The notes beneath the pieces were generated by a model. That model did no database searches, was not told the origin of the DNA, and saw only the letters and a list, made by a program, of their open reading frames with translations. This document shows positions 1 through 8,944 of a stretch of DNA of 50,805 bases, piece by piece. Numbering within the stretch: the first letter of the stretch is position 1; each line of letters starts with the position of its first letter. A program made the translations under genes and the position numbers. Source of the stretch: a virus (lineage: Duplodnaviria > Caudoviricetes); IMG/VR virus record IMGVR_UViG_3300009528_000005, positions 1-50,805 of that record, one strand, 5' to 3'.

Positions 1-123
1 CCTGCGAGACTACGCTGTTCCCAGGTGGGGGATATGGGCTAAATTTCAAGTGTCCCGATTCTGTGCCTGACCAGCAGACGGCTGATATGGCTTTGAAGGT
101 TGAAGAGACTTTAGTGGGGGCAG
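1..123. repeat. Terminal direct repeat / circular assembly overlap (copy 1)
   Basis: Identical to 50683-50805; a reading frame runs across the junction. Confidence 0.95.
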
Positions 124-140
124 GGCATGAGGTGGTCTGA

Positions 141-290
141 ATGAAAGAAACCCTAACAAAAAGTGACGTGCTGAAGTGTCGTGGCATACGGGATGAGGGC
201 GTGTGGGTTGATGCAAATAGGAATGTACGGATAAACACCAAATTACCTCTTGAAAAAATTATTGAGATAGTTCAAGCCCTTCAACGATAA
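141..290 (+). CDS. Small hypothetical protein (49 aa, MKETLTKSD...IVQALQR), last late gene; its stop lies in the distal attC
   Basis: ATG directly after TGA at 138-140, GAGGTG upstream; translated by hand. Confidence 0.55.
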   Translation: MKETLTKSDVLKCRGIRDEGVWVDANRNVRINTKLPLEKIIEIVQALQR

Positions 291-401
291 AATCAGCGGC
301 GGGTTATTTAAGTGTCGCCTATAATTGTTTTAGGTTTCCATTTTGGCAAATCTTTTGTCTTCACAAATAATGCAACTCGTCCGCTGCATTGTGGGTTAGG
401 A
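279..401 (-). other. attC site of cassette D
   Basis: + strand: CAAC-gataa-AAT-CAGCGG-CGGGTT ... AACTCG-t-CCGCTG-c-ATT-gtgg-GTTAGGA. Confidence 0.8.
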
Positions 402-550
402 GGCGCATTTCCTATAGCCCAACGAACCCCCGCTAAAAAATGACTCAAACGATCTCTATACTGCTCCTGCGTAGATGTTTTTATTTGGAAGTTCTCCGTT
501 GACCATTCATGCAGACATGTTTGAAACCATTCGGCTGCCTTTTCAATCAT
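308..550 (-). CDS. Cassette D ORF, hypothetical 80 aa, reads into its attC
   Basis: SD AGGAGG inside core site GTTAGGAGGC just before ATG. Confidence 0.75.
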   Translation of the reverse strand: MIEKAAEWFQTCLHEWSTENFQIKTSTQEQYRDRLSHFLAGVRWAIGNAPPNPQCSGRVALFVKTKDLPKWKPKTIIGDT

Positions 551-557
551 AAAAGCC

Positions 558-620
558 TCCTAACAACAAGCTCACTGGTAGACTACCCTGTAGACTATCC
601 AGTGCAGTAATGGGTTAGGA
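558..620 (-). other. attC site of cassette C (63 nt)
   Basis: TCCTAAC-aacaa-GCT-CACTGG-TAG ... CTA-t-CCAGTG-c-AGT-aatgg-GTTAGGA. Confidence 0.9.
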
Positions 621-770
621 GGAATGAATTGCTATGACTGTACTGATCAAACCCCCAAAATAACCAATCAGCCAAAAAATCACTTTATTTTCTGTGTGGC
701 GGTATATGTCTAAATACACTCCTATACTCCCAGAAAGGATTATAATAAACAAAGCCATTAATATTCTCAT
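615..770 (-). CDS. Cassette C ORF, 51 aa two-TM membrane protein (MRILMALFIII...)
   Basis: Start moved to 770 after SD in GTTAGGAGGAATG; TAA stop lies inside the R'' box as in classical cassettes. Confidence 0.75.
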   Translation of the reverse strand: MRILMALFIIILSGSIGVYLDIYRHTENKVIFWLIGYFGGLISTVIAIHSS

Positions 771-778
771 TACATTCC

Positions 779-862
779 TCCTAACAACAAGCTGAGCGGC
801 GGGATTATTCTGCCTCAGATGGGCTATTCCTTTTTCCTGTCCGCTCCAGTGGTGGGTTAGTT
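779..862 (-). other. attC site of cassette B (84 nt)
   Basis: TCCTAAC-aacaa-GCT-GAGCGG-CGGGA ... TCCTG-t-CCGCTC-c-AGT-ggtgg-GTTAG. Confidence 0.88.
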
Positions 863-996
863 TTCGGTGGTGTGCATGGGCTACAAGTACAGCCCCATTT
901 GCCATTCTTAAAATACCACCATGACCAGCCAGTTTTTGACCAATGACAGCTATCCTTTTTCCAGCCATCCTTGCCATCAACACGTCTTTTTTTCAT
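805..996 (-). CDS. Cassette B ORF, 63 aa Trp/Cys/Lys-rich protein (MKKRRVDGK...)
   Basis: GAGG SD before ATG at 996; reads into attC. Confidence 0.65.
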   Translation of the reverse strand: MKKRRVDGKDGWKKDSCHWSKTGWSWWYFKNGKWGCTCSPCTPPKTNPPLERTGKRNSPSEAE

Positions 997-1011
997 AATA
1001 AACCTCAAGCA

Positions 1012-1139
1012 ATCTAACGACAAGCTCACCCGTGCGGTGGTCTATGGATAGGACATCTTGGGTCAATATTCAAGAATCGTTCGTCTTCTGGCTTAACCTC
1101 ACATGTGCAAACCGCATCGGGTGCAGCAGTGGGTGGGGA
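1012..1139 (-). other. attC site of cassette A (R'' degenerate, CAC for AAC)
   Basis: ATCTAAC-gacaa-GCT-CACCCG-TGCGGT ... ACCGCA-t-CGGGTG-c-AGC-agtgg-GTGGGGA. Confidence 0.8.
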
Positions 1140-1283
1140 GGCGCTTAAACGCAAAAACCTATTGATATCCTTTATTTCATGTAATAATTCAAAAAGTAGA
1201 TTAGCTTCAACAGTTTGAGATTTTATTCTACCACCATCAAATTCAACAAATACATTTAAATAACTATCTCTCGTAATTTTCAT
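1026..1283 (-). CDS. Cassette A ORF, hypothetical 85 aa with C-terminal CxC...CxxH
   Basis: SD GGAGG in core site GTTGGGAGGC. Confidence 0.75.
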   Translation of the reverse strand: MKITRDSYLNVFVEFDGGRIKSQTVEANLLFELLHEIKDINRFLRLSASPPTAAPDAVCTCEVKPEDERFLNIDPRCPIHRPPHG

Positions 1284-1290
1284 TTTAGCC

Positions 1291-1332
1291 TCCCAACCAG
1301 GGGATTACCTGCATATTTGCCGCATATCCCCT
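1291..1332 (-). other. attI-like site
   Basis: GTT core at 1295-1297 without an attC partner arm; direct repeats ATATGCGG/ATATGCAG and inverted AGGGGAT/ATCCCCT. Confidence 0.55.
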
Positions 1333-1468
1333 ATTCATATTTTTTCTGTTTCTTTATATAATCCTGATACTCCTCACACTTAGCCTGTTTCTTGCATCGT
1401 TGCTCACAGATTAAATGATGAATCCAGAGTTTACTGGATCTTTTCTGGCAAAAGACGTACTTTCTCAA
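1331..1468 (-). CDS. Small Cys-rich protein (45 aa, MRKYVFCQKR...)
   Basis: TTG start overlapping upstream TGA, GGAGG SD; translated by hand. Confidence 0.55.
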   Translation of the reverse strand: MRKYVFCQKRSSKLWIHHLICEQRCKKQAKCEEYQDYIKKQKKYE

Positions 1469-1752
1469 AACTTCCTCCCCATAATCTCTCGGTGCTTGAC
1501 ATACCGATTCATCCAGCGTCTCATACTACCAAGGGTCTTAAATTCTTGAACCTCATATAATTCTGATACTATAAGAAGTCTCCATGCTCCCCATGCCCTT
1601 TTGTTAGGCTGACATATCCAAGCTGTTCTTCCAATAGTAACCGGCTGCTGAATACTCTCCCCAAACCATGAAGCCATGTGGTCAATGACGGAAACCGAGG
1701 GATCGTCCTCAATCAGCTTGGCGATGTCAAGGGGGTTTAGTTTTATTTTCAT
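1465..1752 (-). CDS. Hypothetical early protein
   Basis: ORF in tightly packed leftward operon. Confidence 0.65.
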   Translation of the reverse strand: MKIKLNPLDIAKLIEDDPSVSVIDHMASWFGESIQQPVTIGRTAWICQPNKRAWGAWRLLIVSELYEVQEFKTLGSMRRWMNRYVKHREIMGRKF

Positions 1753-1757
1753 TGTGG

Positions 1758-2558
1758 CTAAAACGGAACTGGCGCACCATTTAGTAGTTGCTCTGAAGGC
1801 TCTGGGATCTCATCTTTCGGAGCGTTCGACATAGCCGTTCTGAAGCCCATACAGGTAGCAACGTCCCCACATTGGCTACTACAGTATATCGTGGCTACAG
1901 GATCACCTTTATTGGCGTCTAGGGGGCATTCTGCAACAGGTACTTTGGTTGCAAAATCGCCCTTGGGTACGTCTGTAAGGGGTGCTACCGTGTCTTTATC
2001 ATCCACAAATATCTCACTTTCTGGCTTGATCTCATGCTCCCCCACATCAAGCCCGTGTGCTTTCTCCCACATGGCTATGCCAGCATCCACGATCTCCAAG
2101 CAGAAGTCCTTGAAAGAGTGGGAAGAATGTAGTTTCATATTTGTTAGGGCAATCCCAGCATCTTTTGCGTATGAAATACAGACAAAAAGGCTCTTTTCAT
2201 CTCTTGAGCTGACAGTAGATGACTTGCTTGTTCCCTTGGGACTACTAGTATGTGGCTCATGGATTTCAGGTTGTTCGTCATCAGGTAGTTTCATGTCCTT
2301 GATGATATTATTAACAAAGGTTCTTCCTTCATTATCTCCTTTGCCAGCTACTCTCTCTACACTATATTCCATGTAGGAAATTCTCATGCCTTCCCAAGGT
2401 ATTAATTTATTTCCTGAATGCCAATAAGTGTACTTATCATCGTTCTTGTCAGTATAAAAGTTGTAGGGTGTAGACTCCCACGATCTATCTTCCTTGGTAA
2501 AAGATTGAGTTTTGCCCTTATATACCTTGGTAATTCTAAGATCGGTTAATTGTGGCAT
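1758..2558 (-). CDS. Putative single-stranded DNA-binding/recombination protein
   Basis: Beta-rich N-terminus, acidic tail ending PVPF, next to exonuclease. Confidence 0.5.
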   Translation of the reverse strand: MPQLTDLRITKVYKGKTQSFTKEDRSWESTPYNFYTDKNDDKYTYWHSGNKLIPWEGMRISYMEYSVERVAGKGDNEGRTFVNNIIKDMKLPDDEQPEIHEPHTSSPKGTSKSSTVSSRDEKSLFVCISYAKDAGIALTNMKLHSSHSFKDFCLEIVDAGIAMWEKAHGLDVGEHEIKPESEIFVDDKDTVAPLTDVPKGDFATKVPVAECPLDANKGDPVATIYCSSQCGDVATCMGFRTAMSNAPKDEIPEPSEQLLNGAPVPF

Positions 2559-2568
2559 GGTTGTTCTC

Positions 2569-3219
2569 CTATAATAATTGTTTCAAGACCTTCTCTGCCT
2601 TTGCCAAGTACAACGCCCTCTCAAAGCAACCCCACGCCTCATCGGGTAAATCTGCCCTATAATGATGTATGAAGCTCAGATATTTCCCGTCTCTAGGCAT
2701 TTGTAGAACATCGAATCTCTTTATCGGCTTATATCCGTTTTCCTCTGCCAAGACTTTGTAAGCTACCGGCTGAATCCAACTATCAGGATAACCGAACTTC
2801 CCCGATTTCCAGTCCAATATCGACAACTCACCCAAAACTAAGCCGATTACATCGGGTGTGCCCCCAAATTGCCATTCCTCACTTATGAGGTTGGGTTCAA
2901 CTGCTAATGGCTCAAACTCAAACTGTTCTGACCATTTTTCAAAGTTGGCAAAGGACTTTTTACCTCCCTCTATATCCTTGTCAGACCATTCGAGGTTGAA
3001 TTGTGGTTCTTTCTTTTTCAAAAAGCACTCGACAAGGTAATGCCCTATTGTACCGGGAACGGTTACAGTATCATAGGCTTCTTGCAGGGTTTTGCCTTCA
3101 AGTCCCTGCTTGTTGGCCCACCACATAAGAGGAGCGGTGCCCCATCCTATATTCTTTTTAATGGTGGTAACGCCTTGTAATCGCTTGCCGTCTTTGTTCT
3201 TATAAACAACTCTAGGCAT
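2569..3219 (-). CDS. PD-(D/E)XK exonuclease (Cas4/RecB-like)
   Basis: GVTTI, GTIGH, E, GTPD, ILDWKS, QxxAY motifs. Confidence 0.85.
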   Translation of the reverse strand: MPRVVYKNKDGKRLQGVTTIKKNIGWGTAPLMWWANKQGLEGKTLQEAYDTVTVPGTIGHYLVECFLKKKEPQFNLEWSDKDIEGGKKSFANFEKWSEQFEFEPLAVEPNLISEEWQFGGTPDVIGLVLGELSILDWKSGKFGYPDSWIQPVAYKVLAEENGYKPIKRFDVLQMPRDGKYLSFIHHYRADLPDEAWGCFERALYLAKAEKVLKQLL

Positions 3220-3346
3220 CGTCTGGATTTCCTTTCTCTGTTCTCCCGTACTCCCTCAACTCATCCGGGTCACAAGGCGGTTTGGATTCCAGCTTGTAAA
3301 GTTCTTGCAAAACAAGCTCGTCTAAGAATGCTTCGTGGTCTGTCAT
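3212..3346 (-). CDS. Small acidic protein (44 aa, MTDHEAFLDE...)
   Basis: AGGA SD; fills gap and overlaps the next start. Confidence 0.5.
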   Translation of the reverse strand: MTDHEAFLDELVLQELYKLESKPPCDPDELREYGRTEKGNPDDA

Positions 3347-3357
3347 GGACTGGTTCC

Positions 3358-3585
3358 TTATGGCTCCTCTGGTTCTTTTATATCTGCAACCTTTTCACCA
3401 AAGATGCCCTCAGCTTCATTTACTTTATTTAAATTCCTCCACCCAAATATTTGAAAACATAAACAAGATTCCTTTTCCCCATTCTTAGCATATTCTTGAA
3501 CCTTAACTATATCCCACACATCATCCCATTCAGTACCGGGGCGATACCAATAATAACCCGCTTCTGTTGGCTTCAAATATTTCAC
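3358..3585 (-). CDS. Hypothetical protein (PTEAGYYWYR motif)
   Basis: Common small phage ORF motif; GAGGAG SD. Confidence 0.7.
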   Translation of the reverse strand: MKYLKPTEAGYYWYRPGTEWDDVWDIVKVQEYAKNGEKESCLCFQIFGWRNLNKVNEAEGIFGEKVADIKEPEEP

Positions 3586-3740
3586 TTTATTATCTTACTC
3601 CTCAGAATTTTCACAACATGCATCCCCGACCCATCACAGACCACAATGCTATCCGGCTCGACCCAGCACTCACTCACCGAAACAGAGCTAGGCGACAGGG
3701 CTATCAGGGCTATTATTGCTATGGTTAGTGTCCTCTTCAT
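3582..3740 (-). CDS. Small secreted protein (52 aa, MKRTLTIAIIALIALS...)
   Basis: GAGG SD, signal-like N-terminus, GTGA overlap. Confidence 0.55.
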   Translation of the reverse strand: MKRTLTIAIIALIALSPSSVSVSECWVEPDSIVVCDGSGMHVVKILRSKIIK

Positions 3741-3758
3741 CCTCTATCTTCACTTTAA

Positions 3759-4133
3759 TTAAAACCTTATCCCTATGGTATAATTGTACGTGACACAGGC
3801 TCCAGACACCCCTATCCACACCCCTAACCAAACCCTTCTCCACTTAGAAGGAAGAAAGTGAGCGATTACAATTTCCCCTATGGCAGTGGCTAAAAAATAA
3901 GTGTCCACTTGACCTTGTGTTGGATGTCTGCCAAGACAAGGGTTCGTTTCATGGTAATTTGGATTTCTTGCTATTTCTTTGGTCTGCAAATAATCAATAG
4001 TCCGCAAACCAAGGCTGGCCCCCAGCAAAGCTTTGTCTGTCTTTGTCCATTCATCTGCGGCATAACAATTGGAGCAAAAGACAAACACAAACAAACATAT
4101 AGTAATAAGCGGAGTCGCTTTACTTCTTTCCAT
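3759..4133 (-). CDS. Membrane protein with signal peptide (ETNPxLGxxP motif)
   Basis: Start moved to 4133; several hydrophobic segments. Confidence 0.7.
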   Translation of the reverse strand: MERSKATPLITICLFVFVFCSNCYAADEWTKTDKALLGASLGLRTIDYLQTKEIARNPNYHETNPCLGRHPTQGQVDTYFLATAIGEIVIAHFLPSKWRRVWLGVWIGVSGACVTYNYTIGIRF

Positions 4134-4374
4134 CCAACCACGCCTCCATCTTTTCGGGGCTGCCCCAGCAGTTGCCAGGAGCCTCATGGTAGAAGAACGC
4201 AATAATATCAAGTAATCGTTCTTTGTCTTTTTTGTCTATTCTGCGGTAGCTCTCCACTAGGTTGTTGCAAATGACAGCCTGCAAGAAACCCCCGTCACAT
4301 TCTGGTCGTTGCCTTTCTTCGATGTATCGCCAAACACTGGCTTTAAGGTGCTTCGGTAACAGATTGTAATTCAT
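4120..4374 (-). CDS. Conserved hypothetical phage protein
   Basis: GGFLxAVxxNNL...PxxCWGS pattern; GAGGT SD. Confidence 0.75.
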   Translation of the reverse strand: MNYNLLPKHLKASVWRYIEERQRPECDGGFLQAVICNNLVESYRRIDKKDKERLLDIIAFFYHEAPGNCWGSPEKMEAWLDGKK

Positions 4375-4509
4375 ATTTACCTCTTTTATGTAGCCCGTGA
4401 GCCAGATAAGGAGGATTAGGCCGTTGTCCGGCCCACGGGGTCAAGGGATGCTTAATATTTTCTCCGAGGTTATTTGCGTTTGTAAGAAAAATCAGCACCC
4501 CTCAGTTAA

Positions 4510-4613
4510 GGGCGTGGGCAGGATTTTCACCTGCACCGGGGTTACTAACTATGCACCAAGCCATCCCGGAGGGGGTGCTTCCGTACCCTGCGTCTAATTC
4601 CGCGACCACGCCC
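4510..4613 (-). ncRNA. tRNA-like RNA with extended, non-canonical anticodon arm
   Basis: Acceptor GGGCGTGG/CCACGCCC, D arm GCG-GAATTAGA-CGC, T arm GCAGG-TGAAAAT-CCTGC; no CCA. Confidence 0.6.
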
Positions 4614-4657
4614 ATGCTTTTTCAAAGAGCTTATTCCCGCCCCGTAGCAGCCGACCC

Positions 4658-4866
4658 CTAAAACTGAGCCTTCTCCGTGCTCATGGCCCTGCCGTGAGAG
4701 CTTCGTTGTTCCTTTGTTGGCTTGATAGTTTGTTGATGAGACCAACGCATTAATTCAAAAATAGTTGTTTTGCTTGGCAAAAAAGTCGTATGACTTATAA
4801 AATCCGCTAAAAGCTCATCCAAAGCCTTGTGCAACTCGACATGGCGTTGCTTGTGTTCTTTTTCAT
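4658..4866 (-). CDS. Hypothetical protein (HKxRHxELH motif); ORF track 4658..4870
   Basis: ORF track; ATGA coupling with the upstream gene. Confidence 0.65.
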
Positions 4867-5151
4867 TCATGGTTTTCGTGTCCCCGGTCCTATCGGGGGT
4901 TCAATCTCTTCCTTCCACAAACTCACCGTCTCAACCCCTCCCTCGTCATGGGCTATGATATAGGGCGTACCTGTGGCCCTGAAGTGCTTGGTCCAGTTCT
5001 CCAAGATGCCCTTAGCGGTCTCTGGTGCGCCGCCAAAGGAGTATGTGCTGCCCATCTTGAGGCTTGGAACGAAGTCCATCAGGGGAACACCCTCAAGTAG
5101 GTGGGGCTTGTATGCGTCAATTCCGCGTTGCATGAGATCTGAGAGAGTCAT
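4867..5151 (-). CDS. Hypothetical protein
   Basis: ORF in leftward operon. Confidence 0.65.
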   Translation of the reverse strand: MTLSDLMQRGIDAYKPHLLEGVPLMDFVPSLKMGSTYSFGGAPETAKGILENWTKHFRATGTPYIIAHDEGGVETVSLWKEEIEPPIGPGTRKP

Positions 5152-5157
5152 GACTAG

Positions 5158-5421
5158 TTAAAAACACTCGCTCCATTCATAGCCGTCTGATTCAATAGCT
5201 GGACGAGTTCTTAGTTCTTCCCAATGAATTGCGTAACTTATAGCACCCCTTTTCGAGCCAAAAACATTAACGCTTTTTCTGTTTTCGTGTGGTAGCCACA
5301 AACAGTATTTCCCATCAGGAGAACAAAGCAATTTATACCCATCTGGCATCTGTTCTTGTGTATCGCCACATGTGATAAACATTACAGACATTAATAAAAG
5401 AACAATTGTAATTTTCCTCAT
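5158..5421 (-). CDS. Putative lipoprotein
   Basis: MRK + hydrophobic stretch + FITC. Confidence 0.6.
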   Translation of the reverse strand: MRKITIVLLLMSVMFITCGDTQEQMPDGYKLLCSPDGKYCLWLPHENRKSVNVFGSKRGAISYAIHWEELRTRPAIESDGYEWSECF

Positions 5422-5448
5422 AAAAACCCCAACTGTACGGGTATGGTC

Positions 5449-6276
5449 TTATTTGAGTAAGTGCCAAGCTTCCTCATACTTTCTTACTCGTTCCCAATAC
5501 ATATTTCTTCGGTATTTATTAAGCCATTCATATTTGTGGGTATATCCTGAATCTCTAACAACAAAAGATTTCCTGCCATTTGTATTTGGAAAAACATAAA
5601 AGGTGTTTTGGGGTTGGACGTAAAAAATAACAAAATCAGCCTCTTTTTGTTGTCTTGGGCTTAAAGTGGTACAATAAAAAGTTGCTCCCTTTGGCCTTGT
5701 GGGGCTTCCACTGTTTCTACTTTTTACTTCAACTAGTTTCCCGTTTATTTTAAAATCTACTACATGACCCTTGGGTGCATATTCACATTCATAGCCCAAC
5801 TCCTCACATTTTTCTAAAACTAGAACCTCTGCTTTTGCTCCTCTTTTTACTAGACTATCCCTCTTGTCTATTATTTTGAGTCGTGGATCACAAACACAAT
5901 CCCAAATTTTCATTTCGGCTTGTTTCAATGCGGTTTTTTCTTTTTGGATTTGACCATAAGGAATACCATAAAGTCCTTTAAAAAGTTGCCTAGCTCTTTC
6001 ACGGGTAAAGCCATATGCTTTTGCAAGTTCAGTAAGATTCCAAAATTGTTTCTTGAAAAGCAAATCGAAATCTTTAAGAATTTCCTTGCCATGATTTTCA
6101 ACAAGATTAGATCGTAGAATTTCTTTTGGGGTTCGTTTTCTAGTTCTTCGATGGGTTCTCTCCCACCAGCGTTGATAACAACGGGAACACAGGCCACGCT
6201 TTTTGATATGGATAGGTTGATCTTGGCAAGTACAACAAAGGGGTTCTAATTCGAGTTGAGTGGCAAGCTGTTTCAT
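5449..6276 (-). CDS. Zn-finger/HTH + PD-(D/E)XK endonuclease (homing-endonuclease-like)
   Basis: CxxC...CxxCY, LTELAKAYGFTRERARQL HTH, VDFKINGKLVEVKS. Confidence 0.7.
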   Translation of the reverse strand: MKQLATQLELEPLCCTCQDQPIHIKKRGLCSRCYQRWWERTHRRTRKRTPKEILRSNLVENHGKEILKDFDLLFKKQFWNLTELAKAYGFTRERARQLFKGLYGIPYGQIQKEKTALKQAEMKIWDCVCDPRLKIIDKRDSLVKRGAKAEVLVLEKCEELGYECEYAPKGHVVDFKINGKLVEVKSRNSGSPTRPKGATFYCTTLSPRQQKEADFVIFYVQPQNTFYVFPNTNGRKSFVVRDSGYTHKYEWLNKYRRNMYWERVRKYEEAWHLLK

Positions 6277-6288
6277 GGTTGCCTGACT

Positions 6289-6351
6289 ATTACATAACTG
6301 TAATCTTAATGCAACCCTGAATAAACGAAGTGTAATTTACAGAACTGTAAT
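6289..6351. promoter_or_regulatory. Operators ATTACA-N4-TGTAAT overlapping the leftward promoter
   Basis: Palindromes at 6289-6304 (perfect) and 6336-6351 (1 mismatch); TTGCAT -35 on the - strand. Confidence 0.65.
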
Positions 6352-6470
6352 CACATAGGATTAATTACACATTCGATCTAAAAATCAGCCATTTTCCCCT
6401 GTTTTCTCGCCTTTTCACCCACAAACAGCACTTGCATTGTAATTCTTGACTATGATAAAAGAAATATGTT

Positions 6471-6845
6471 ATGAAATCCGTCATGCTTCAAAGACTCCAA
6501 CCCCGATTTAAGCATCTGATTGAAATCTATCAGGGCAAAACCGGGAAAGACCAAAAAACCATCGCATCAGATGTGGGGCTACCGGCTTCACGTCTTTCGG
6601 GGCTTCTTACGGAAAGCACTAAGTTGAGTGCAACCTATCTTGAACCTTTTATCTGGGGTGGAGTAATTAAAGTGGCCGACATTTATGATGGCAAGCCAGA
6701 AACCGCCAAAGAAGTCGAGTTCTGGAAAAGAATGAGTTACGCTGAGAGGACAGACCTTACTGATTTGATGGTTCGTTTGGAAAACGCCGGGAAAGATCCG
6801 AAACGAGTTATGCTTGAGGCTTTAATTGAGGCCGAAAAAGCATAA
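6471..6845 (+). CDS. XRE-family HTH repressor-like protein
   Basis: QKTIASDVGLPASRLSGLL HTH; flanked by operators; no peptidase domain. Confidence 0.75.
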   Translation: MKSVMLQRLQPRFKHLIEIYQGKTGKDQKTIASDVGLPASRLSGLLTESTKLSATYLEPFIWGGVIKVADIYDGKPETAKEVEFWKRMSYAERTDLTDLMVRLENAGKDPKRVMLEALIEAEKA

Positions 6846-6860
6846 TTTTTTTGTTTGACG

Positions 6861-6918
6861 ATTACAAAAGTGTCAGGGGGCATATATTTTTTTGCCCTCT
6901 GGATTACACAAATGTAAT
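6861..6918. promoter_or_regulatory. Rightward operators
   Basis: ATTACAcaaaTGTAAT at 6903-6918; ATTACAaaagTGTCAG at 6861-6876. Confidence 0.6.
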
Positions 6919-7049
6919 TTACAAACATTTACCCATCTTACTATCACAGAATGCAAAAGAAAAACACTGAGAAACTATGGAGAAAGGGAAGGGTGGTAAG
7001 CAAGCGAGGGAATGGATGGATTGAATGGGGCTACTTTATCTAACTCATC

Positions 7050-7205
7050 TTAATAATTTATTAATATTTCTGCTATTAGCAGGAAAAGAACAAACAAGAC
7101 AACGAAAATAAAGGAAACCCATTCATACTCATTATTGGGTTTTAGTTCTTTTTCCCAAAATCCCTTCTTGGAAAAAATATAGGTTATGGTGTGCTTAAAA
7201 CTCAT
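7050..7205 (-). CDS. Possible small membrane protein (MSFKHTIT...)
   Basis: C-terminal TM segment; antisense to the operon. Confidence 0.35.
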   Translation of the reverse strand: MSFKHTITYIFSKKGFWEKELKPNNEYEWVSFIFVVLFVLFLLIAEILINY

Positions 7206-7296
7206 CGCCAATAGCCTGTAGCATAAAACACGATAAAAGTCAAACCACGGATAAAAATTGCGTAGTCCATGACCCCCTTGATTAACACAGCCCAAA

Positions 7297-7800
7297 ATGA
7301 ATTTTGAGTATTTATATCAACCCCCGAAAAAATGGACATTTGAACAGCTGGAACTGAAGCGTTTTGTTGAATCATATTGTATTGAACCCGTGCTTAATCT
7401 TTTTGCCGGAAAAACAAAATTATCCATTAAGGAGGTACGAGTTGATTCAAATCCTGAAATGCCAGCTAATTTTCATATGGATGCAATGATGTTTCTCAAC
7501 AGCTGGAATGGTGACAAGTTCGGGAGCGTTATTCTTGATCCGCCCTATAGTGTTAGAAAGGGGCGGGAAAAATATCTAAACCACCAAATCGGGAAACTCA
7601 CAAAAATCAAGAACAGGCTAATGGGTTCCCTTGTTCCTGGAGGCCGTGTAATTTCACTTGGCTATGATAGTGTTGGAATGTCACAAAAACGAGGGTTTAT
7701 TAAAATAGCGATATGTCTTGTCTGTCATAGCGGGGATCACAACGACACGATTTGTTTGGTTGAAGAAATGAACCAATTAAATTTATTGCCAATTCAATAA
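7297..7800 (+). CDS. Small amino-DNA methyltransferase
   Basis: Motif I VLNLFAG and motif IV ILDPPY. Confidence 0.75.
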   Translation: MNFEYLYQPPKKWTFEQLELKRFVESYCIEPVLNLFAGKTKLSIKEVRVDSNPEMPANFHMDAMMFLNSWNGDKFGSVILDPPYSVRKGREKYLNHQIGKLTKIKNRLMGSLVPGGRVISLGYDSVGMSQKRGFIKIAICLVCHSGDHNDTICLVEEMNQLNLLPIQ

Positions 7801-7810
7801 AAGGATCACC

Positions 7811-8944
7811 TTGAACTTATCCCCCAATTCTGATACAGCGCCTCCAAATAACCAGGGGGAGGTGGCATTGGTGACACGATGCAAGTATTACAGGCGCAAG
7901 GATGTGAGGTCTGAGCGTTACGTTGTCTATCTTGATTACAAGGGCAAGCGGTGGACACGGACGTACTTTGACGATCGTTTGTCCATCTGTGCAAAACCTA
8001 TGGCGCGGGAGCTTTGCTCTGAAATCAGCGCCGATTACAGGCGCAACCCGAAGACGTTTGACCCGCTTAAATGGTTCAGGGTCAGGCTGTCAGAGATGCG
8101 ATTCAGAAACTATGCTGATAGATGGCTTGATCGCAGGGACATCGAGGAGAGTTCCTATCAGGTATATAGGCATATTCTCAACGAAGCATTGGAAGTTCTT
8201 GGCGATTTGGACATCCGGGATATCCGAAAGTCCCACCTGAGGGATTACGTTGAGGGGTTGTCGAAAGACCTGTCCCCGAATACCGTCCGATACAAACTGT
8301 CCGTCCTGAACATCCTGTTTCGGGATGCCTACAATGACGAAGAAATAAACAGAACGCCTGGATTCCCCAAAATCAAGGCCGTGCCGGTTGTGACCCGCTG
8401 GTTAAACTACGAGGAACAGCAACAGGTACTTGAACACATCCCTGAACCAGATAAACCGATATTCAAATTTATGACGTATTATGGTTGCCGGGTAGGAGAA
8501 GCCGTGGCTTTGATGTGGGACTGTGTGGATTGGAGGCAGGGGGTTGTTACGATAAAGCGCACACTTTCGGCCAACAAGATCAGAGAAAGCCGCAAGACCG
8601 GGAATGTTCTGTGCCTACCGCTCACCGATGAAATGGAAGCCTTGTTGCGGCCACTTCGTAGTCTTCGCAAATTTGTGTTCACGAACAGGTATGGCCGGAG
8701 ATATTACAGACAAAACCTTCTGCGTACTTGCAATATAGCTTGTGAGAAAGCTGGGTTTGAACGCCTGTCCTTGCACGAACTATGCCGACATTCCAAGGGG
8801 GGCCAGTTAATTAACCAAGACGTGCCGCTCGAACAAATATCGGCATTATTGGGACACAAACATACTAATTCAACAAAGCGATATATCAAAATAAAAACGG
8901 AAACCCTGAAGCCGTTGGTAGAACATCCGGTTACGGACCGATAA
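7811..8944 (+). CDS. int: Tyrosine recombinase / integrase (start uncertain)
   Basis: Catalytic R (GCRVGE), K, HxxxRH, LGH, Y; SAM-like core-binding domain. Confidence 0.92.
   Translation: MNLSPNSDTAPPNNQGEVALVTRCKYYRRKDVRSERYVVYLDYKGKRWTRTYFDDRLSICAKPMARELCSEISADYRRNPKTFDPLKWFRVRLSEMRFRNYADRWLDRRDIEESSYQVYRHILNEALEVLGDLDIRDIRKSHLRDYVEGLSKDLSPNTVRYKLSVLNILFRDAYNDEEINRTPGFPKIKAVPVVTRWLNYEEQQQVLEHIPEPDKPIFKFMTYYGCRVGEAVALMWDCVDWRQGVVTIKRTLSANKIRESRKTGNVLCLPLTDEMEALLRPLRSLRKFVFTNRYGRRYYRQNLLRTCNIACEKAGFERLSLHELCRHSKGGQLINQDVPLEQISALLGHKHTNSTKRYIKIKTETLKPLVEHPVTDR

What the first reader, a model, noticed from the sequence alone, without database searches (positions are those of the whole stretch)
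1291..1332. Candidate attI-like landing pad
Seen: the first GTT core has no attC partner arm. It is preceded on the - strand by direct repeats ATATGCGG/ATATGCAG and bracketed by AGGGGAT/ATCCCCT, starting at the stop codon of the last core early gene. Inference: an attI retained without intI, so new cassettes enter promoter-proximally.
Basis: inference. Interest (0 to 1): 0.7.

Follow-up and report, generated by a model that had tools for sequence, protein, structure and literature searches.

The report
Phage-side edge of an integron cassette array
The 42 bases are the phage-side border of a real array of four tiny integron-type gene cassettes carried by an uncultured phage, but nothing found shows that this border is a dedicated integron landing site (attI).

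Summary
The motifs are all present at the stated coordinates. The GTT core at 1297-1291 (minus strand) is a genuine cassette boundary. It opens an array of four micro-cassettes (1296->285). Each cassette ends in an attC site that a covariance model built only from bacterial integron attC sites ranks as the top four hits in the 50.8-kb genome. Each attC's outer box pairs best with the core at the start of its own cassette (4 of 4 at 12 nt; 10 of 10 in a bacterial control). This places the crossover at G1297|T1296. It also identifies TTGAAGG at 284-278 as the other half of the original target.

The attI reading is not supported:
- There is no intI or intI remnant.
- There is no inverse core upstream.
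- The direct repeats are not core-like and occur at chance level (16% of windows).
- The 42-mer shows no similarity to 30 intI-adjacent regions.

The most likely origin is that a host integron integrase inserted the cassettes at an ordinary GTT in the gap between two converging phage operons, an attG-type secondary-site event. The hairpin is then phage sequence. No relatives of this phage exist to test repeated use. Cassette arrays lacking an integrase are already known in phages.

The parts
1331..1468 (-). 45-aa ORF whose TAG stop (1333-1331) overlaps the first arm of the hairpin. It is the last gene before the cassettes.
   Evidence: No family match.
1299..1332 (-). Hairpin with arms AGGGGAT (1332-1326) and ATCCCCT (1305-1299). 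It encloses the direct repeats ATATGCGG (1327-1320) and ATATGCAG (1316-1309). This is the phage-side left flank of the junction.
   Evidence: sequence. (folds). (chance levels). (no similarity to intI-adjacent DNA).
1291..1297 (-). GTTGGGA core. The crossover is inferred between G1297 and T1296. TTGGGAGG belongs to cassette 1 and also serves as its ribosome-binding site. The ATG is at 1283-1281.
   Evidence: the core pairs 9 of 12 with the R'' box of cassette 1's own attC, including one compensatory C-G for T-A change; control.
1018..1296 (-). Cassette 1 (279 nt): ORF 1283->1026 (85 aa) and attC A (1139-1011).
   Evidence: 22.2 bits, E 0.0016.. The protein matches only itself.
785..1017 (-). 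Cassette 2 (233 nt): ORF 996->805 (63 aa) and attC B (862-778).
   Evidence: 30.4 bits, E 9e-6..
564..784 (-). Cassette 3 (221 nt): ORF 770->615 (51 aa, hydrophobic) and attC C (620-557).
   Evidence: 33.7 bits, E 1e-6. (DNA fold z -5.4). (12 of 12 with its own start).
285..563 (-). Cassette 4 (279 nt): ORF 550->308 (80 aa) and attC D (401-278 as matched by the model).
   Evidence: 15.4 bits, E 0.12; weakest hit.. The protein matches only itself.
278..284 (-). TTGAAGG, inferred to be the right half of the original target site. It now completes the last attC.
   Evidence: it is the poorest partner of every R'' box (4-6 of 12), so it does not belong to any cassette.
141..290 (+). Last ORF of the converging rightward operon (49 aa). 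Its final two codons, CGA TAA (285-290), lie on the cassette side of the distal junction.
   Evidence: The inference comes from the crossover position.
7811..8944 (+). The phage's only tyrosine recombinase. It is of the Xer/phage-integrase type, not an integron integrase.

Best explanation
Window 1291-1332 is the upstream junction of a four-cassette integron array that lacks an integrase (a CALIN), carried in a complete 50.8-kb phage genome. The 35 nt from 1332 to 1298 are phage DNA: the short spacer after the last gene of the leftward operon, which contains a hairpin. The G at 1297 is the last base of the target. TTGGGAGG onward belongs to cassette 1.

The cassettes were most likely put there by a host integron integrase acting in trans. 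It recombined a folded attC with an ordinary double-stranded GTT in the phage, an attG-type or 'secondary site' insertion. The cassettes entered either as one multi-cassette circle or in steps. The other half of the target now lies 1 kb away at 284-278, where the array meets the end of the converging operon.

The cassettes are probably read through from the leftward operon. Each brings its own ribosome-binding site inside its TTRGGAGG start. The hairpin and the two 8-mers have no shown role in recombination. The hairpin may be a leftover terminator or RNA-stability element.

Shown: the attC identity of the four elements, the crossover position, and the absence of intI. Inferred: who catalysed the event, the single-site history, and the role of the hairpin.
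For: 1. The record is a complete virus genome with terminal repeats.

2. Model R1 was built only from 16 attC sites of two bacterial genomes. One of these carries an intI scoring 345.8 bits. Scanning the whole window with filters off, R1 ranks the four phage elements first to fourth, all on the minus strand (33.7, 30.4, 22.2 and 15.4 bits; the next hit scores 10.6).

3. All four elements have the attC layout: R'' CTAAC (CCCAC in attC A), a CCA spacer, 3 bp, one unpaired base, 6 bp, an unpaired A, and then the AGC-TTGTY spacer and GTTAG (attC D departs from it, with GAT-TTTATC and GTTGA). The unpaired bases sit at the same positions as in the bacterial sites.

4. At 12 nt, each attC's R'' box is most complementary to the core at the start of its own cassette (9, 8, 12 and 10 of 12) and less so to the adjacent downstream core (5, 5, 10 and 6), which is 4 of 4. 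In a bacterial array the own start beats the downstream core in 10 of 10.

5. Cassette 1's variant start GTTGGGAGG pairs with its variant R'' CCTCCCCAC through a compensatory change.

6. Upstream of the GTT, the junction does not resemble the AGCTTGTY that precedes three of the other four cores.

7. There is no intI or remnant in six frames at E<=10.

8. Integron integrases insert cassettes at non-att genomic sites that need little more than GWT, and small CALINs may arise that way (bioRxiv 10.1101/2022.09.11.507474; sections 30, 31 and 33 and passages read).

9. CALINs are known in phages (PMC9892861; section 3.4 read).
Against: - No empty site and no related phage was found, so the pre-insertion state is only inferred.
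- Joining the two halves would extend the converging plus-strand ORF by 29 codons, antisense to the 45-aa ORF. That is awkward for a simple insertion.
- Four cassettes is more than the one or two that the attG paper stresses.
- The right-hand motif reported for E. coli attG hotspots (CRGM at +6 to +9) is not present in the inferred right half (GGGC).
- The inverted and direct repeats together are uncommon (0.46% of windows), which leaves room for a protein-binding role.
- The own-start signal is weaker at other lengths. At 9 nt, two cassettes tie. At 15 nt, attC A pairs slightly better with another core (11 against 10).
- 4 of the 16 training sites for R1 were found with a pattern taken from the phage elements, so its scores partly reflect that selection.
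- The fourth hit is weak (E 0.12).
Confidence: 0.55

Rival explanations
1. It is a true attI-like landing pad. The phage keeps a dedicated entry site without an integrase. A host integron integrase binds the hairpin and repeat region and loads new cassettes at G1297|T1296, so the array was built by repeated captures.
For: - The array starts exactly here at a G|TT crossover.
- The inverted plus direct repeat combination is rare (33 of 7252 windows; 3 of 216 GTTRRR-ending 42-mers).
- The two 8-mers start 11 nt apart, about one helical turn.
- There are four cassettes with heterogeneous attC sites (64-129 nt).
- attI sites differ greatly between classes, and most lack direct repeats (PMC3146285 passages), so lack of similarity is weak evidence.
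- A figure legend in PMC9892861 describes a prophage CALIN with its own attI.
Against: - There is no intI or remnant, and the phage recombinase is not IntI.
- There is no inverse core and therefore no simple site upstream.
- The repeats lack a GTT core (one search compared).
- There is no similarity to 30 intI-adjacent loci or to the attI of the integron with the matching attC type.
- The direct repeat alone occurs in 16% of windows.
- The distal half of the target lies inside the 3' end of a phage gene.
- One multi-cassette insertion explains the array equally well.
Confidence: 0.13
2. The array came in as a block together with its left flank from a bacterial integron or CALIN, by illegitimate or homologous recombination. 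In that case the 42-mer, and perhaps the small ORFs upstream, are bacterial DNA and not phage sequence.
For: - The 45-aa, 95-aa and 266-aa ORFs upstream have no phage family match, and the 266-aa protein matches only itself. Their phage origin is therefore unproven.
- PMC9892861 (section 3.4) proposes off-target homologous or illegitimate recombination for phage CALINs.
Against: - The upstream ORFs are tightly packed in the same operon as a phage exonuclease (phrog_298, E 1.9e-17), with overlapping stop and start codons.
- GC content is even across the region (0.435 for 1-2000 against 0.40-0.48 elsewhere).
- There is no intI remnant next to the site.
- The distal end stops cleanly at a complete attC whose last half-core is foreign to every cassette, as expected from a site-specific event.
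Confidence: 0.12
3. The repeats are the phage's own intergenic stem-loops carrying ribosome-binding sites. They would be a phage-internal shuffling or regulatory system unrelated to integrons, and the 42-mer would be just another spacer.
For: - Three of the five cores read GTTRGGAGG, which is also a ribosome-binding site at a normal distance from the ATG.
- The first unpaired base is G in all 4 phage elements but C in the bacterial sites.
- The cassettes are unusually small (221-279 nt), and their ORFs run deep into the attC sites.
- The exact GGAGG-type pattern was not found in metagenome contigs (0 hits).
- The looser pattern gave only one chance hit in viral contigs.
Against: - A model built from bacterial integron attC sites finds exactly these four elements and nothing else.
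- The positions of both unpaired bases match those of the bacterial sites.
- The own-start complementarity is the signature of G|TT cassette mobility, as in the bacterial control.
Confidence: 0.08

Closest known systems
Clusters of attC sites lacking an integrase (CALINs) in phage genomes (Qi et al. 2023, PMC9892861; abstract, section 3.4 and passages read)
   Same: - Co-oriented small cassettes with attC sites in a phage that has no integron integrase.
- That paper also notes GTTRRRY motifs and a terminator-like hairpin at the boundary of one phage CALIN.
   Different: - This is an uncultured subsurface phage with no relatives in the collections searched.
- Its cassettes are very small.
- The junction can be placed to the base by own-start pairing.
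- That paper's boundary table is a supplement, which I could not open.
attG / secondary-site cassette insertion by integron integrases (Loot et al., bioRxiv 10.1101/2022.09.11.507474; sections 30, 31, 33 and passages read)
   Same: - A G|TT (GWT) crossover in ordinary double-stranded DNA.
- The flank has no att-like structure.
- No integrase is nearby.
- The product is a small integrase-less array.
   Different: - attG was shown experimentally in E. coli with IntI1-3, not in a phage.
- The hotspot right-hand motif is not seen here.
- This array has four cassettes, not one.
- The event here is inferred, not observed.
attI1 of class 1 integrons (as described in PMC3146285 passages and the PMC9892861 figure legend)
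   Same: - A GTTRRR core at the start of the first cassette.
- Two direct repeats upstream.
   Different: - There is no adjacent intI.
- There is no inverse core, so no simple site.
- The repeats are not core-like.
- There is no sequence similarity to intI-adjacent DNA.
- There is no promoter-like site.
Promoter-stem-loop cassettes that shuffle small ORFs in T4-type phages (recalled from memory; not checked in any call)
   Same: Small ORFs in a variable phage region, separated by repeated stem-loops that carry expression signals.
   Different: - Those repeats carry promoters and shuffle by homologous recombination.
- The repeats here have integron attC architecture and G|TT junction signatures.

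Membership tests
attI (primary integron recombination site) | Lies next to a divergent intI gene or its remnant. | tested here: not met
   - The only PF00589 match is at 8399-8896.
- TIGR02249 gives only 13 and 11 bits, on that same gene, at E<=10.
- That protein scores 24 bits against a 265-bit cut-off.
- It lacks the insertion present in 3 of 3 correctly extracted IntI proteins. A fourth extraction, L019, was a wrong-frame ORF and was dropped.
attI (primary integron recombination site) | A GTTRRRY core at the crossover, at the start of the first cassette. | tested here: met
   The core is GTTGGGA at 1297-1291. Six of seven positions fit; the last is A, not Y. Own-start pairing places the crossover at G|TT.
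attI (primary integron recombination site) | A simple site: an inversely oriented core-like 7-mer just upstream of the core (definition from PMC3146285). | tested here: not met
   There is no AAC anywhere in 1332-1298 on the minus strand. No inverse-core copy within one mismatch lies upstream on that strand before 10059.
attI (primary integron recombination site) | Core-like direct repeats that bind the integrase. This feature is optional and absent from most attI families. | tested here: not met
   ATATGCGG and ATATGCAG contain no GTT. Repeats of this quality occur in 16% of 42-nt windows.
attI (primary integron recombination site) | Sequence similarity to the attI of a related integron class. 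| tested here: not met
   - Compared with the attI region of the Competibacteraceae integron, the score is 19, and 91 of 500 shuffles reach it.
- Compared with 30 intI loci (101,393 bases), the best score is 22 and 39 of 40 shuffles reach it.
- This is a small sample drawn from one class plus one genome.
attI (primary integron recombination site) | Integrase binding and elevated attI x attC recombination. | not testable with these tools
   This needs a conjugation or binding assay.
attC (cassette recombination site), asked of the 42-mer itself | An imperfect palindrome with R''/R' and L''/L' boxes and unpaired bases. | tested here: not met
   Model R1 gives no hit at 1291-1500 at E<=10 with filters off.
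attC (cassette recombination site), asked of the four downstream elements | R''-L''...L'-R' architecture with two unpaired bases, recognised by a model of bona fide sites. | tested here: met
   - They are the top four hits in the window.
- The folds agree.
- The unpaired positions match the bacterial consensus.
- The first unpaired base is G, not C, in 4 of 4.
- IntegronFinder's own model was not available.
CALIN (cluster of attC sites lacking an integrase) | Two or more co-oriented attC sites with no integron integrase nearby. | tested here: met
   There are four attC sites on one strand within 1.1 kb and no intI in the whole genome.
attG (non-att genomic insertion site) | GWT at the cleavage point in otherwise unremarkable double-stranded DNA. 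| tested here: met
   G1297|T1296 lies at the proximal junction and G285|T284 at the distal junction.
attG (non-att genomic insertion site) | Hotspot motif CRGM at +6 to +9. | tested here: not met
   The inferred right half reads GGGC at those positions. The motif was defined for IntI1 hotspots in E. coli only.
Intrinsic terminator | A GC-rich hairpin followed directly by a U run. | tested here: inconclusive
   - The consensus scan did not call it on either strand.
- On the plus strand the hairpin stands out (z -2.6 to -3.0).
- A U-rich tract follows, but it begins about 8 nt after the stem.

The most novel reading that the evidence does not exclude
The phage runs an integrase-less integron platform. 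A fixed entry site at the end of its leftward operon is recognised by the host's integron integrase. The phage can therefore load, swap and export micro-cassettes, each bringing its own ribosome-binding site, during infection or lysogeny.
Probability: 0.12. Interest if true: 0.75.

Novelty: new member of a known kind. Interest (0 to 1): 0.4.

Why it matters
Integron cassettes are a major route of gene exchange among bacteria. Phages carrying cassette arrays have only recently been described, and how the arrays enter phage DNA was left open.

In this phage the two ends of the array can be read to the base. They look like the product of integron-integrase recombination at an ordinary GTT in phage DNA. 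That would extend the recently described 'attG' route to phage genomes. It would also mean that a host integrase can write cassettes directly into an infecting or resident phage.

If the border were instead a dedicated landing pad, phages would be active partners in cassette traffic, not accidental carriers.

Tried and rejected
Searches for relatives of the phage:
- Megablast and sensitive blastn of 1-8000 and 1-6300 against 50,697 phage records gave no match.
- The 266-aa protein, the terminase and the nearest exonuclease homologue (P0004) found no related locus in viral contigs.
- Terminase tblastn against phages gave 63 records, all below 60% identity and mostly 22-27%.
- The 266-aa, 80-aa and 85-aa proteins matched only themselves in the 5.8-billion-protein collection.
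- An HMMER search with the exonuclease gave a best hit of 51% identity.
- The 13 metagenome loci recovered with it share only the exonuclease with this phage (tblastn of 25 window proteins). They hold no attC hit at E<=1, so they say nothing about the junction.

Searches for the site or its attC type elsewhere:
- A degenerate form of the 42-mer found 0 matches in viral contigs.
- The GGAGG-type attC pattern found 0 matches in metagenome contigs.
- The looser attC pattern found one viral contig. That match lies inside a 481-aa ORF and is a chance hit.
- In genome contigs the looser pattern hit 6 loci. Three of them, from two genomes, are real attC sites. I judged the other three (L003, L007, L008) to be chance by eye.

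Sequencing runs:
- Only one run holds the region, and it may be the source.
- Its contigs show no alternative junction.
- This says nothing about variants.

Other leads:
- Rfam gave nothing at the site.
- An apparent 'TAATC-N-GTT' resemblance to the Competibacteraceae attI junction was rejected. The motif occurs 4 times in 203 kb of intI loci and 4 times in 102 kb of the phage.
- A 17-nt inverted similarity between 28-44 and 1315-1331 was judged chance, being one of 102 such pairs in 8 kb.
- Supplementary Table S2 of PMC9892861 (boundaries of phage CALINs) could not be opened and may hold comparable junctions.

Full report
**What the window is.** The window is a whole virus record of 50,805 bases with direct terminal repeats, estimated complete. 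Genes run leftward on the minus strand from about 6276 to 308. They run rightward from 6471 round the record's end to 290. The leftward operon contains a phage-type exonuclease (phrog_298, E 1.9e-17). The finding lies near the far end of that operon.

**The observation.** Read on the minus strand, the sequence runs as follows:
- TAG stop of a 45-aa ORF (1333-1331)
- AGGGGAT (1332-1326)
- ATATGCGG (1327-1320)
- CAA
- ATATGCAG (1316-1309)
- GTA
- ATCCCCT (1305-1299)
- GGTTGGGA (1298-1291)
- GG
- five bases
- ATG (1283-1281)

Chance levels were measured:
- A perfect 7-bp inverted repeat occurs in 152 of 7252 42-nt windows of this genome.
- An 8-mer direct repeat with at most one mismatch occurs in 1182 of 7252.
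- Both occur together in 33 of 7252.
- Among 216 42-mers ending in GTTRRR, 3 have both.

The direct repeat is therefore ordinary. The hairpin is mildly unusual. The combination is uncommon but was picked after looking. The hairpin folds no better than many shuffles on the minus strand (z -1.6). It folds rather better on the plus strand (z -2.6 to -3.0).

**What lies downstream.** Four small ORFs follow on the minus strand: 1283->1026, 996->805, 770->615 and 550->308. Each is followed or overlapped by an imperfect palindrome with this layout:
- CTAAC (CCCAC in the first, attC A)
- a CCA spacer
- a short stem carrying two single unpaired bases six pairs apart
- a variable loop
- the return stem
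- AGC-TTGTY
- GTTAG

The last of the four, attC D, departs from this at its 3' end, where GAT-TTTATC and GTTGA stand in place of AGC-TTGTY and GTTAG. That is the architecture of integron attC sites.

A gapped pattern taken from these elements was scanned over one genome per prokaryote species and hit six loci. Three of them, from a Competibacteraceae genome and a Desulfococcaceae genome, are attC sites. The Competibacteraceae contig L004 is an obvious cassette array. That genome also has an integron integrase scoring 345.8 bits (cut-off 265).

I aligned 16 attC sites from those genomes (A1). Only 4 of the 16 match the phage-derived pattern. I took the consensus structure and built model R1. 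I then searched the whole window with filters off. The four phage elements are the top four hits, all on the minus strand:

| Coordinates | Bits | E-value |
|---|---|---|
| 620-557 | 33.7 | 1e-6 |
| 862-778 | 30.4 | 9e-6 |
| 1139-1011 | 22.2 | 0.0016 |
| 401-278 | 15.4 | 0.12 |

The next hit scores 10.6 bits. E-values from this model are rough, and the training set was reached through a phage-derived pattern. The positions of the two unpaired bases were not part of that pattern, and they match. There is no hit at or upstream of 1291-1332. No inverse-core copy lies upstream on that strand. The first GTT therefore has no attC arm.

**Where the crossover is.** In an integron, a cassette owns the TTRRRY at its 5' start and its attC up to the G. 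The outer R'' box of an attC should therefore pair best with the core at the start of its own cassette, and less well with the core physically next to it.

The results at three lengths:
- At 12 nt this holds for 4 of 4 phage cassettes. Own-start scores are 9, 8, 12 and 10 of 12. Scores for the adjacent downstream core are 5, 5, 10 and 6. The own start is the best of all five cores each time.
- At 9 nt, two cassettes tie.
- At 15 nt, the own start beats the downstream core in 4 of 4, but attC A pairs one base better with another core.

As a control I ran the same test on the bacterial array L004. There the own start beats the downstream core in 10 of 10 at both 9 and 12 nt.

Cassette 1's unusual start, GTTGGGAGG, pairs with its unusual R'' box, CCTCCCCAC. 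The pairing includes a C-G where the other cassettes have T-A. The crossover is therefore G1297|T1296, and TTGGGAGG came in with cassette 1. The last half-core, TTGAAGG at 284-278, is the worst partner of every R'' box and belongs to no cassette. It is the other half of the original target.

The array, 1296->285, thus sits exactly between the ends of two converging operons. Its distal end supplies the last two codons of the plus-strand ORF 141-290.

**Is the left flank an attI?** The defining features were taken from PMC3146285 (passages) and PMC9892861 (figure legend). They were checked as follows:
- **No integron integrase.** The only tyrosine recombinase (7811-8944) scores 24 bits against a 265-bit cut-off for the integron-integrase family. 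It lacks the IntI-specific insertion seen in three bacterial IntI proteins. A fourth extraction was faulty and was dropped. A six-frame search at E<=10 finds nothing else.
- **No simple site.** The 35 nt upstream of the core contain no AAC at all.
- **Repeats not core-like.** The two direct repeats contain no GTT, whereas DR1 and DR2 of attI1 are core-like.
- **No similarity to intI-adjacent DNA.** I compared the attI region of the Competibacteraceae integron, whose attC type matches; 91 of 500 shuffles score as high. I also compared 30 intI-adjacent loci totalling 101,393 bases; the best score is 22 and the shuffle mean is 24.
- **No promoter-like site.** None lies on the minus strand nearby.

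attI sites are very diverse, so the lack of similarity is weak evidence. No positive attI feature beyond the core itself was found.

**Most likely mechanism.** Integron integrases insert cassettes into ordinary double-stranded DNA at sites that need little more than GWT. These sites are named attG. The inserted cassettes can be expressed from nearby promoters and excised again, and small integrase-less arrays may arise this way (bioRxiv 10.1101/2022.09.11.507474; sections 30, 31 and 33 and passages). Integrase-less arrays are already known in phages. One of them lies behind a terminator-like hairpin containing inverted cores (PMC9892861, section 3.4).

The clean G|TT at both ends, a left flank with no att features, and a right half lying inside the end of a phage gene all fit an attG-type insertion by a host integrase. 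The cassettes could have entered as one four-cassette circle or in steps. This genome alone cannot distinguish those two histories.

The hairpin is then phage sequence. On the plus strand it is followed after about 8 nt by a U-rich tract, so it may be a leftover terminator of the converging operon, but the scan did not call it.

One awkward point remains. Joining the two halves would lengthen the plus-strand ORF by 29 codons, antisense to the 45-aa ORF. The simple reconstruction may therefore be incomplete.

**What could not be done.** No relative of this phage was found by any route. The decisive comparison was therefore impossible. That comparison would ask whether related phages have an empty site, the same cassettes or different cassettes behind the same 42-mer. 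The only sequencing run holding the region may be its source, and it shows no alternative junction.

**Verdict.**
- The claim that this is the first cassette boundary, without its own attC arm and without an intI in the phage, is supported.
- The claim that it is a retained attI acting as a promoter-proximal landing pad is not supported, though it is not excluded. I put it at about 0.13.
- The underlying object is a phage-borne four-cassette array whose ends carry the signature of integrase-mediated insertion into phage DNA. It is real and moderately interesting, and it belongs to a kind already described.

Noticed in passing
window 278-1296, minus strand: All four cassettes are very small (221-279 nt). 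Three of the five cores read GTTRGGAGG, so the cassette's mobile 5' end also serves as its ribosome-binding site. Two ORFs (85 and 80 aa) run 30-40 codons into their long attC sites.
   Followed up: partly
window 557-620, 778-862, 1011-1139, 278-401: The first unpaired base of the attC stem is G on the ORF strand (C on the folding strand) in 4 of 4 phage sites. It is C (G on the folding strand) in essentially all 16 bacterial sites aligned. The second unpaired base, A, and the 6-bp spacing are the same. This may point to a different integrase specificity or attC lineage.
   Followed up: partly
window 28-44 (+) and 1315-1331 (-): A 17-nt inverted similarity (14 of 17) brackets the whole array. 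One copy lies inside the 42-mer and the other inside the plus-strand ORF at the window's start. I judged it chance, because 102 comparable pairs occur in 8 kb.
   Followed up: partly
window 7811-8944 (+): This is a 377-aa Xer/phage-type tyrosine recombinase with an N-terminal extension of about 100 aa. It suggests a temperate lifestyle. No attachment site was sought.
   Followed up: no
window 1758-3219 (-): The phage exonuclease (216 aa) is followed by a 266-aa protein that matches only itself in 5.8 billion proteins. By position this protein could be an orphan single-strand annealing partner.
   Followed up: no
L004 1-6587 and L010 1-1608 (Competibacteraceae genome): This is a large chromosomal cassette array with at least two attC subfamilies. 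Its integron integrase is split over two contigs, and several cassettes look like toxin-antitoxin pairs. The first cassette starts at a GTTAGAG core about 200 nt from the intI start.
   Followed up: partly
window 1334-1362 (+): A promoter-like site (TTCATA, 17 nt, TATAAT; 10 of 12) points rightward on the plus strand, antisense to the 45-aa ORF, immediately beside the hairpin.
   Followed up: no
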